A DNA stretch of 63,532 nucleotides, the filler included, from Kipferlia bialata (lineage: Eukaryota), in the NCBI GenBank assembly GCA_003568945.1. It is 3 parts of 3 records of this genome, joined end to end, with 100 filler letters (N's around TTAATTAATTAA, not from the genome) between each part and the next. Parts side by side here need not be neighbours in the genome. Positions count along the whole stretch, not along the records: positions 29,897 to 59,640 come from BDIP01000130.1; 2 more parts are not named here. The stretch is one strand, 5' to 3'. Below are positions 53,801-55,961 of this stretch, piece after piece. The translations under genes were made by a program, and so were the position numbers. Below the pieces are notes generated by a model that did no database searches, had not been told where the DNA came from, and worked only from the letters and a program-made list of their open reading frames with translations. Each line of letters starts with the position of its first letter. The first letter of the stretch is position 1.

Positions 53801-55961
53801 CCCACTGGCCACACCATGTCCCCAGCTGCTGCTGCACACACAGTGGTATCCAACGCTAGGCTGGTGAGTTACCCCATCTCTCTCTCTCTGTCTCTCTCTC
53901 TCTGTCTCTTTCATCCACTTTCGGTGGTATCCAACGCTAGGCTGGTGAGTAACTGTCTCTCTTTCTCTCTTTCTCTCTACTTTTCCACAGCCCGCACGTT
54001 GGATATCCGACGAAGCCTTCTCTCTCTCTCTCTCTCTCTTAACCTTAGGTCCTCACCACGCCATGCTTCTACCTAATCTCCATCTGGGGCTTCTTCACCT
54101 GTGGTGGGTACTTCACAGTCACAGGCCTCTGGGCCATGGAGTTTGTGAAGATAGGGGCAGGTATCGTGTAACTATGTACCTACGCGACTACCTAGAGTAT
54201 TTACTAACCAAATATATCTCCTCAGACTCTGCCTGGGTGGATTCTACATCGCGTCAATATTAATCATATATCTACGCGGTTACTGACCCCAGACATCTCC
54301 TCCGACTCTGCCTCCATGGTCTCTATGGTCCTATATATCATATATATAGATATCTATCTACACACACACACACACATACATATATTCAACTATATACTTT
54401 CTAACCGTAGACATCTCCTCTGACTCTGCCTCCATGGTCTCTATGGTCCTGGGGTTCTAACTATATATTCATATACATAAGGATATACCTTGTATTTCTA
54501 CGCGGTTACTAATGATAGACATCTCCTCTGACTCTGCCTCCATGGTGTCCATGGTCCTGGGCTTTGTGTTTGCATTTGGGTCACCTGCCATAGCAACGGT
54601 CTCTAACAAGGTGTGTAGGTGCATATACCATATGAGTATATAGATATATCCATTATTATATGTCTGTAGTATGTGTGGATACTGGTATGAGTTATTTGTT
54701 GTGTGTTTGCATTTGGGTCACCTGCCATAGCAACAGTTTCCAACAAGGTATAGTAGTGTATGTGGTGTATGTACTACAGTATGTAGTTTACATTGTATGT
54801 AGGGAAATAATGGTACTATCATACCTCCCATACCTTTTTAACATCTAGTTGCACACCCGCAAGTGGATCATGGTGACTGGCAGTGCCATTGCACTGGTCG
54901 TAGACGGAGTATTCACAGCTAGGTATGTCATCTATTACATAGTATGCATATATATTATATAGTATACATACAAGTGGATAATGGTGACTGGCAGTGCCAT
55001 AGCCCTTGTGGTCGATGGGGTGTTCACAGCTAGGTATAGTATGTATATGTATGTGTGTGTACATATAATATACAATATATATATATATACTATGTGGAGT
55101 GCCATTGCACTTGTGGTGGACGGGGTGTTCACAGCTAGGTATAGTATGTATATATGTGTGTGTGTACATATAATATACAATATATATATATATATACTAT
55201 GTGGAGTGCCATTGCACTTGTGGTGGATGGTGTGTTCACAGCTAGGTATGCTATAATTGTATATAGTGTGTACACCAGATACTAGACACGATATTATTTC
55301 AATATATAGTGATAGTGGATCCTCACAAAGTTTACATAATCACAGGCAGCTTATTTACATAATTAGTTTTCTATATATACTATATACTTCTAGTGTATTG
55401 ACACCCAGGCCTGATGGCTGGTCCCTGGCTTCTGTCACTGTGGCACTTGGTGTATGGGCAATGGCCACAAACACAATGGGTACGGAATATATATAATACA
55501 TATATATAATACATATATAGTAGAGTGATACTTTGTCAACAAACACAATTGGCCAACACAATGGGTAAGATGGTGTCCTTAGGTTCACTGTATATATATA
55601 CTCGTGCAACTTCTAACCCCCAGAGACCATTGCATACACCTCTGTCAAATGTATATATATATTGTATGCACTAATGCTCTATGAATATACTACATATGTG
55701 CTCTTAACCCCTATCCCTCTTACCCCAGTGACCATTGCATACACCTCTGTCAAGGAGAGATTCCCCATAGAGCTGTCAGGTACAGTATGTAGATGTGTAC
55801 ACTCACTTCTTACTCTTCAAGTGGAGTTTCCTGACACACACATGTATCTATATATGCCTAGATACATGTGTAGGTTTACATGTATATGCATATTGGCATC
55901 AAACATTCTTCCATGTCCTGGGTCAACCTCGTCATACCCCCCCCTCTCTCTCATATCATTA

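What the first reader, a model, noticed from the sequence alone, without database searches (positions are those of the whole stretch)
54849..55245. Clearest echo set: four versions of SAIALVVDGVFTAR in different codons
Full exon 54849-54922: AAG TGG ATC ATG GTG ACT GGC AGT GCC ATT GCA CTG GTC GTA GAC GGA GTA TTC ACA GCT AG|gt. Echo 54972-55033: AAG TGG ATA ATG GTG ACT GGC AGT GCC ATA GCC CTT GTG GTC GAT GGG GTG TTC ACA GCT AG|gt. All 9 differences are synonymous third-position changes; (1/3)^9 is about 5e-5 if positions were random. Echoes at 55098-55138 and 55205-55245 differ from each other only by GAC GGG vs GAT GGT, again synonymous, so constraint also holds between echoes.
Basis: seen in the sequence. 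Interest (0 to 1): 0.85.

Follow-up and report, generated by a model that had tools for sequence, protein, structure and literature searches.

The report
Introns storing other alleles' exon ends
In a transporter gene of the protist Kipferlia, the introns hold 38 copies of exon ends, spaced about 100 bases apart, that differ mostly at silent codon positions and are spliced out in the three introns checked; they are likely pieces of other working versions of the gene left by failed recombination.

Summary
Observation confirmed. Exon 54849-54922 of a 20-exon MFS transporter gene (protein record named Kipferlia bialata) is followed by three copies of its 3' end plus donor; all 20 differences from the exon are synonymous. 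This is gene-wide: 38 junction copies on 16 of 20 exons, 75 of 99 differences synonymous, spacing 102±17 nt, also in other genes of the window. Contigs of a DNA run bridge exon and first echo at uniform depth; echoes 2-3 were not bridged. A spliced contig skips all echoes in three introns, so the coding signature is probably inherited, not current. Echo intron flanks are mostly unrelated to the real flank yet keep branch-point motifs, differences come in patches, and distal copies are more decayed. Best reading (0.5): strand exchange with a diverged allele starts in an exon, runs into non-homologous intron and is closed by Pol-theta end joining, leaving a short duplication. Closest known: amphioxus 'mirage' repeats, which are whole-unit minisatellites. 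The scan noted similar junction echoes in sea-urchin genes before. No second allele was found, so the donor is untested. New variant of a known kind.

The parts
49961..57242 (+). MFS transporter gene, 20 exons, 1446-nt coding frame without stops, carrying 38 junction echoes
   Evidence: MFS_1, E 2e-31; only 3 of 19 introns are checked against RNA
54849..54922 (+). working exon 14 (LHTRKWIMVTGSAIALVVDGVFTA + AG)
   Evidence: used in spliced contig of run X2 with no other letters
54923..54970 (+). intron segment A, real donor plus 48 nt TA-rich sequence
54971..55033 (+). echo 1: 63-nt exon tail plus GT, 9 synonymous differences, 8 in consecutive codons
   Evidence: in one DNA contig with the exon
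55034..55097 (+). intron segment B (64 nt)
55098..55138 (+). echo 2: 41-nt exon tail plus GT, 5 synonymous differences
   Evidence: a 61-nt contig at depth 500 has its letters and downstream flank (my inference from record 8 and its loose end)
55139..55204 (+). intron segment B', near-identical to B with the same junction into the next echo (a secondary duplication)
55205..55245 (+). echo 3: 41-nt exon tail plus GT, 6 synonymous differences
   Evidence: own letters not seen in a listed contig
55409..55479 (+). next working exon (15), joined directly to exon 14
   Evidence: joint skipping 486 nt, GT..AG
54216..54456 (+). three acceptor-type echoes (intron end plus exon head) of exon 13 (54519-54610)
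   Evidence: bridged by unbroken DNA contigs and skipped in RNA
54702..54747 (+). donor-type echo of exon 13, 3 synonymous differences
55908..56147 (+). three acceptor-type echoes of exon 17 (56203-56261)
15119..18800 (+). second gene with junction echoes (mirrored at 10997-14678 by the palindrome)
58902..60160 (+). junction echoes in two further genes, on either side of the scaffold spacer at 59641-59740
60907..62300 (-). junction echoes in a minus-strand gene

Best explanation
The echoes are intronic, roughly 100-nt tandem modules, each one exon end plus its splice site and adjoining intron piece, likely copied from a diverged working allele when recombination starts in the conserved exon, runs into non-homologous intron and is probably closed by polymerase-theta end joining. 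SHOWN: tandem arrangement (4 of 7 inner junctions in the laid stretch bridged), removal from the main mRNA (3 introns), synonymous bias, several independent codon versions, unrelated but intact-looking splice flanks, patchy differences, decay with distance from the exon. INFERRED: (1) the donors are diverged alleles or sibling lineages; (2) strand invasion happens in exons because only they stay homologous; (3) the extended end cannot re-anneal once it has copied foreign intron and is end-joined, duplicating what was copied; (4) only duplications with one splice site and no whole exon survive, which caps size near 140 nt; (5) new modules land next to the working exon and push older ones outward; (6) short conversion tracts and unequal exchange refresh or re-duplicate echoes (B/B'); (7) each event makes alleles' introns less alike, so affected genes run away while others stay clean. 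The echoes have no coding job; the spliceosome takes the first donor and the last acceptor.
For: Synonymous 75 of 99 differences in 1246 nt, pS 0.23 against pN 0.026; p=5e-12 even against a model in which the exon takes silent changes and the echo decays neutrally. It holds without exon 14 (55:24), for nearest copies only (47:15) and for distinct variants (63 of 87), and in other genes (6 residue changes against 18.3 expected, 0 of 3000 simulations). Variants private to one echo are also silent (25:11), all 6 three-state sites are third positions, and a single line of descent for the exon-14 set needs three reversals (columns), so several working lineages are implied. Echo acceptors keep a CTNAY branch motif (12 of 15 with AG, against 25 of 231 background AGs) although their sequence differs from the real acceptor. 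Donor flanks are no more alike than unrelated introns (p=0.16, 1 of 17 above the null 95th percentile). Differences cluster (28 adjacent pairs against 16.0, 0 of 5000; without exon 14, 13 against 8.4, 124 of 5000). Polarity in 10 multi-echo sets: farthest copy shorter in 9, non-synonymous 8/296 nt against 2/395 nt, splice dinucleotide kept 5 against 10. Intron length = 109 + 101 x echoes, rho 0.90, 19 introns. K. bialata is listed with PolQ, Spo11, Dmc1 and Rad52 and without Ku70, Rad51A-D and Rad54 (PMC8516963 Supplementary Data 2 rows). End joining of failed SDSA gives duplications from about 100 bp in C. elegans (PMC8654963). Crossovers favour exons in a hypervariable fungus (PMC4209137 abstract).
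Against: No second allele or strain was seen: no other letters in the DNA run, no related locus in two metagenome scans, no close protein. The divergence needed is high (23% at silent sites on average, 8 of 8 consecutive codons in one patch), more than usual allelic diversity. Sex has not been observed in metamonads (PMC8516963 passage). Junction microhomology cannot be scored without the parents. The narrow size (69-137 nt) is only explained after the fact; spacing does not track exon length (rho -0.33, p=0.11). Acceptor flanks are slightly more alike than chance (p=0.016, 4 of 21). The C. elegans duplications have a 1-kb median and a sister template.
Confidence: 0.5

Rival explanations
1. 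Ordinary mirage origin with later exchange: modules start as copies of the same molecule (slippage or sister repair); afterwards gene conversion from diverged alleles rewrites exon and echo in patches while the TA/CT-rich intron parts scramble by slippage.
For: Patchy differences; B/B' is a same-molecule-like duplication; echo genes are microsatellite-rich (81-167 nt/kb in four regions, 39 in a fifth, against 3-16 in echo-free regions); 10 of 21 acceptor-type echoes run straight into a CT or C tract.
Against: Echoes with no difference in 37-39 nt still have unrelated intron flanks (exon 6 +129, exon 8 +120), while B and B' stayed near-identical as their echoes diverged; echo acceptors differ in sequence yet keep branch motifs. 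It needs the same diverged alleles as the best reading.
Confidence: 0.22
2. The echoes are under coding selection now: a reservoir that replaces exon ends, by pop-out recombination or conversion in DNA, or by low-level alternative splicing.
For: 24 of 38 echoes have no non-synonymous change, 9 have three or more silent and no other change; one echo in another gene has an in-frame one-codon indel; the three echoes of the finding can each form a 39-nt in-frame cassette; contigs drop rare variants.
Against: Spliced contig skips all echoes in 3 introns with no other letters; only 15 of 38 could be in-frame cassettes under loose rules, and none of the donor-type candidates has a branch motif; distal copies decay and one echo carries TCC>TAA; a homologue has a 12-residue gap where the annotation inserts the echo peptide; the copies encode the same protein, so there is no obvious gain.
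Confidence: 0.12
3. The donors were paralogous gene copies, since lost or missing from the assembly, and the echoes are remnants of ectopic recombination.
For: Saturated silent patches and unrelated introns suit paralogues; no whole genome was available to search.
Against: No paralogous contig at 82% or more over 1.4 kb; protein cluster of one, next relative 41%; at least four other genes of the window would each need lost near-identical paralogues.
Confidence: 0.08
4. Assembly artefact: read-sized fragments of several haplotypes or paralogues were stacked at each splice junction.
Against: Separately assembled contigs of X1 cross 4 of 7 inner junctions with 31 or more letters on both sides (a fifth with 30) at depth 455-472, the same as exons; pieces shared by two copies show 900-1000; no alternative letters. 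X1 holds 0.93 of 760 sampled words while 15% of words straddle a junction. Spacing varies from 69 to 137 nt, and decay is polar.
Confidence: 0.05
5. Neutral tandem copies in which the bias comes only from silent change in the working exon.
For: Exon odd-one-out sites are all silent (5:0); simplest model.
Against: It predicts about 42% silent differences; 76% seen (p=5e-12), and echo-private and echo-echo differences are silent too.
Confidence: 0.03

Closest known systems
Amphioxus 'mirage' repeats (Adh3, globins BflGb6/BflGb9, troponin C, PGBD5; passages of PMC3087553 and PMC3902484 read; the original Adh3 paper was not held)
   Same: Tandem duplications that span an exon-intron boundary, on either side of exons, many but not all keeping AG/GT, with normal splicing; mechanism stated as unclear.
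   Different: Mirage units are minisatellite-like, 81-100% alike over the unit, 10-160 bp, with concerted evolution. Here the intron part is mostly unrelated to the real flank, the exon part differs mainly at silent sites (the word 'synonymous' does not occur in PMC3087553), modules are 69-137 nt, 16 of 20 exons of one gene are hit, decay is polar, and the host is a metamonad protist.
Human F7 intron 7 37-bp VNTR with silent 5' pseudo-sites (PMC1557585, abstract)
   Same: Real donor followed by duplicated donors that stay silent; the most upstream donor is used.
   Different: Identical short repeats at one junction; no acceptor-side copies and no codon-level divergence described in the abstract.
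Tandem duplications from Pol-theta joining of failed SDSA in C. elegans helq-1/brc-1 mutants (PMC8654963, passages and section 12)
   Same: Proposed mechanism; size range starts near 100 bp; K. bialata is listed with PolQ and without Ku70.
   Different: Mutant backgrounds, sister template, median about 1 kb, no tie to splice sites.
Exon-biased crossing-over in hypervariable Schizophyllum commune (PMC4209137, abstract)
   Same: Recombination between diverged genotypes is drawn to conserved exons.
   Different: Normal crossovers; no duplications described in the abstract; hypervariability is not shown for Kipferlia.

Membership tests
mirage repeats | tandem duplication spanning an exon-intron boundary | tested here: met
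   38 of 41 hits lie at an exon end on the matching side
mirage repeats | both 5' and 3' boundaries can be duplicated | tested here: met
   21 acceptor-type, 17 donor-type
mirage repeats | many but not all units keep AG/GT | tested here: met
   29 of 38 by the dinucleotide test (the exon-1 head echo has no acceptor to keep)
mirage repeats | normal splicing unaffected | tested here: met
   3 of 19 introns tested, all skipped whole in one spliced contig; rare isoforms not visible
mirage repeats | minisatellite-like units alike over the whole unit, intron part included (81-100% in BflGb6) | tested here: not met
   real versus echo flanks: 1 of 17 donor-side and 4 of 21 acceptor-side above the null 95th percentile; met only by B/B' and a few echo-echo pairs
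mirage repeats | copy-number instability between haplotypes or somatically | not testable with these tools
   one sample, contigs only
mirage repeats | concerted evolution within a cluster | tested here: inconclusive
   echoes 2 and 3 differ at 2 of 41 sites against 4-8 for other pairs; other sets are mosaic
alternative or mutually exclusive cassette exons | own acceptor and donor, included in mRNA | tested here: not met
   one splice site each; skipped in the spliced contig
recursive-splicing ratchet points | AG|GT preceded by branch point and pyrimidine tract | tested here: not met
   donor-type echoes also come from exons ending in TG or CG (exons 2, 10, 11) and are preceded by exon sequence, not a branch motif
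TMEJ-derived tandem duplications | junction microhomology or templated insertion, and PolQ dependence | not testable with these tools
   parental alleles unknown; PolQ presence from PMC8516963 supplement only

The most novel reading that the evidence does not exclude
Kipferlia introns are a polar, gene-specific archive of recombination: each failed exchange with a deeply diverged allele files a 100-nt piece of that allele beside the working exon, newest nearest, in a runaway loop that builds intron length in fixed modules. One haploid genome would then record the silent diversity and sexual history of an unsampled population of a lineage in which sex has never been seen.
Probability: 0.35. Interest if true: 0.82.

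Novelty: new variant of a known kind. Interest (0 to 1): 0.62.

Why it matters
It gives a testable origin for mirage-type repeats, whose mechanism is called unclear, and extends them to a metamonad. If the donors are alleles, the echoes are indirect evidence of recombination between very diverged genomes in a group where sex is unobserved, and a route of modular intron growth. It also shows that this spliceosome ignores up to three intact-looking decoy donors or acceptors per intron, a natural test of exon definition in a fornicate, and that gene models of this species can absorb echoes as false exons.

Tried and rejected
Whole-genome search: no genome held, so genome-wide frequency and paralogues could not be tested directly. 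Second allele: two metagenome scans found nothing (48 pattern matches, none confirmed; 0 matches). No listed run is on record as RNA; X2 is a guessed RNA run, used only because its contig shows GT..AG joints. Stretch 55036-55206 and most of 55250-55368 had no DNA cover; a hole proves nothing. No reads could be laid beyond 54040-55460, so 31 of 38 echoes have only the word-share evidence. Hairpin masking of echo donors: B and B' fold into long stems, but donor-side segments fold no better than shuffles (mean z -0.21, 0 of 17 below -2; acceptor side 6 of 21, several driven by AT or CT runs; controls 1 of 33); the whole region had z -2.2. Rejected as weak. AT-ward decay of silent sites: none (28:25). 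Constant k-mer overlap as an assembler signature: seen for echoes 2/3 only (23 nt), not in other sets by eye. Spacing set by exon length: not significant. Three of 41 scan hits were dropped before counting (11-12 nt, within the 0-2 hits per shuffle null). Literature: no report of this feature in Kipferlia; 'duplicat' and 'heterozyg' occur 0 times in the main text of PMC5874029 (its supplements were not read); no paper on partial exon duplication with synonymous bias (judged from listings); mirages found in 2 amphioxus papers. Subscription papers are not covered.

Full report
Observation. The full exon is 54849-54922; three copies of its 3' end, each followed by GT, lie 111, 216 and 323 nt downstream, with 9, 5 and 6 differences, all third-position and synonymous.

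Context. The exon belongs to an MFS transporter. A neighbouring exon matches one protein record, named 'major facilitator superfamily protein [Kipferlia bialata]' (Pfam MFS_1). An exact spliced alignment of that protein gives 21 exons; one of them, 54995-55033, is the first echo. Dropping it leaves 20 exons and an open 1446-nt frame. A homologue has a 12-residue gap at the duplicated peptide, so the annotated exon is probably an error.

Extent. Scanning each exon against nearby intron gave 41 hits against 0-2 per codon shuffle in 5 shuffles. Three short hits were dropped. The 38 kept lie at exon ends on 16 of 20 exons: 21 are intron end plus exon head, upstream; 17 are exon tail plus intron start, downstream. 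Successive copies are 69-137 nt apart (mean 102, sd 17.5). Intron length is 109 + 101 x number of echoes (rho 0.90, 19 introns); a rough estimate for introns of echo-free genes is a median of 81 nt (33 introns, heuristic). A frame-free scan found 0 pairs in 29897-48740 and 1-10700 but 1.7-5.6 pairs per kb in five other regions, tracking microsatellite density.

Is it real? This needed care: the module is near a short-read length and the window's first 29.8 kb is an exact palindrome about an AT run. One DNA run, X1, holds 0.93 of 760 sampled words of 49900-57300, while 15% of words straddle an inner echo junction, so at least about half of the junction words are present if sampling is even. Laid on 54040-55460, its contigs run unbroken over 54040-54437 (depth 457) and 54705-55035 (depth 459); the latter holds the exon and first echo with 266 and 65 letters on either side of the junction. 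Pieces shared by two copies show depth 900-1000, and no other letters appear at an 82% likeness setting. A 61-nt contig at depth 500, placed on echo 3 with 2 other letters and a loose end matching segment B', is by my inference echo 2; echo 3's own letters are not in a listed contig. Caveats: X1 may be the source sample, contig depth is no strict copy number, and 6 pieces were not shown.

Is it expressed? A 1727-nt contig of X2 (RNA by guess) joins exons 12-13-14-15 across three GT..AG skips of 358, 238 and 486 nt with no other letters. It uses the first donor and last acceptor each time. Rare isoforms would not show.

The coding signature. In 1246 aligned nt there are 99 differences, at codon positions 14/10/75, 75 synonymous (pS 0.23, pN 0.026). 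A neutral echo beside a silently evolving exon predicts 42%; p=5e-12. The bias survives removal of exon 14, use of nearest copies only and counting distinct variants, and holds in 17 pairs from other genes against a best-of-three-frames null. It holds between echoes (41:12) and for variants private to one echo (25:11). Against uniform constraint, 24 non-synonymous differences exist, mostly in a few decayed copies, one a stop.

Where does it come from? Four results point to several once-working versions of each junction. First, the exon-14 set does not fit one line of descent without three reversals (columns). Second, echo acceptors differ from the real acceptor yet keep a branch motif in 12 of 15 cases against 25 of 231 background AGs. 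Third, intron flanks beside echo and real site are mostly no more alike than unrelated introns, even when the exon part is identical. Fourth, silent differences come in patches, for example 8 consecutive codons between exon 14 and echo 1 (29 of 20000 permutations), as short conversion tracts between diverged sequences would give. Decay is polar: the farthest copy is shorter in 9 of 10 sets and more often broken. No present paralogue was found, which leaves alleles or sibling lineages, but none was found either.

Mechanism (inferred). With hyperdivergent introns, strand invasion can start only in exons, as reported for crossovers in Schizophyllum (PMC4209137, abstract). An end extended into foreign intron cannot re-anneal. 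In C. elegans such failed SDSA ends are joined by Pol theta into tandem duplications from about 100 bp up (PMC8654963, section 12). K. bialata is listed with PolQ, Spo11, four Dmc1 models and Rad52, and without Ku70, Rad51A-D or Rad54 (PMC8516963, section 8 and rows of Supplementary Data 2). A duplication templated on the homologue gives exon and echo two alleles' codons and two alleles' intron flanks, always across a splice site, next to the working exon. Larger events would copy whole exons and be lost. Each event lowers intron homology further, which would explain the all-or-none pattern among genes. I put this at 0.5; same-molecule origin with later allelic conversion 0.22; current coding use 0.12; lost paralogues 0.08; artefact 0.05; neutral copies 0.03.

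Comparison. It works like the amphioxus mirage repeats (PMC3087553 and PMC3902484, passages; lead taken from an earlier scan note, then read) and the F7 intron 7 repeat (PMC1557585, abstract): boundary-spanning copies that leave splicing intact. It fails one defining feature, whole-unit minisatellite similarity, so I file it as a variant, not a plain member. That amphioxus and sea urchins are highly polymorphic is recalled, not checked; if so it would fit an allele-driven origin. I found no description in Kipferlia or with a silent-site signature; unread supplements of PMC5874029 and the unheld Adh3 paper could bear on this.

Verdict. Real feature, ordinary gene, unusual intron anatomy with a strong and unexplained-in-print codon signature; mechanism plausible but its donor untested. 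New variant of a known kind, interest 0.62.

Noticed in passing
window 1-29796: Exact palindrome, 0 mismatches between the two 14,898-nt arms, centred in an (AT)n run near 14900; most likely an assembly fold-back, and the gene at 14946-18800 lacks its 5' end there.
   Followed up: partly
window 29797-29896 and 59641-59740: Spacers of 44 N, a 12-nt six-frame stop linker and 44 N: the window joins three separate scaffolds; a 993-N gap lies at 48741-49733.
   Followed up: yes
window 54995-55033: The public protein P0001 includes this echo as a 13-residue exon; the spliced contig skips it and a homologue has a gap there. Echo-derived false exons may be common in this proteome.
   Followed up: partly
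window 17363-17390 vs 17461-17491: Acceptor-type echo that lacks exactly one codon in frame.
   Followed up: no
window 50803-50844: Echo of exon 3 with TCC>TAA, which also creates a GGTAAC donor-like site 30 nt from its acceptor.
   Followed up: no
window 55034-55097 and 55139-55204: Segments B and B' fold into about 25-bp stems with G-U pairs, starting next to the echo donors; z only -1.7 to -1.8 against shuffles.
   Followed up: yes
window 48330-48690, minus strand: Exons resembling the C-terminus of a 26S proteasome AAA-ATPase subunit (motif recalled, not tested), running into the N gap.
   Followed up: no
window 29897-45900: Long intron-rich genes with short introns, few microsatellites and no echoes, a natural control for what makes a gene echo-prone.
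   Followed up: partly
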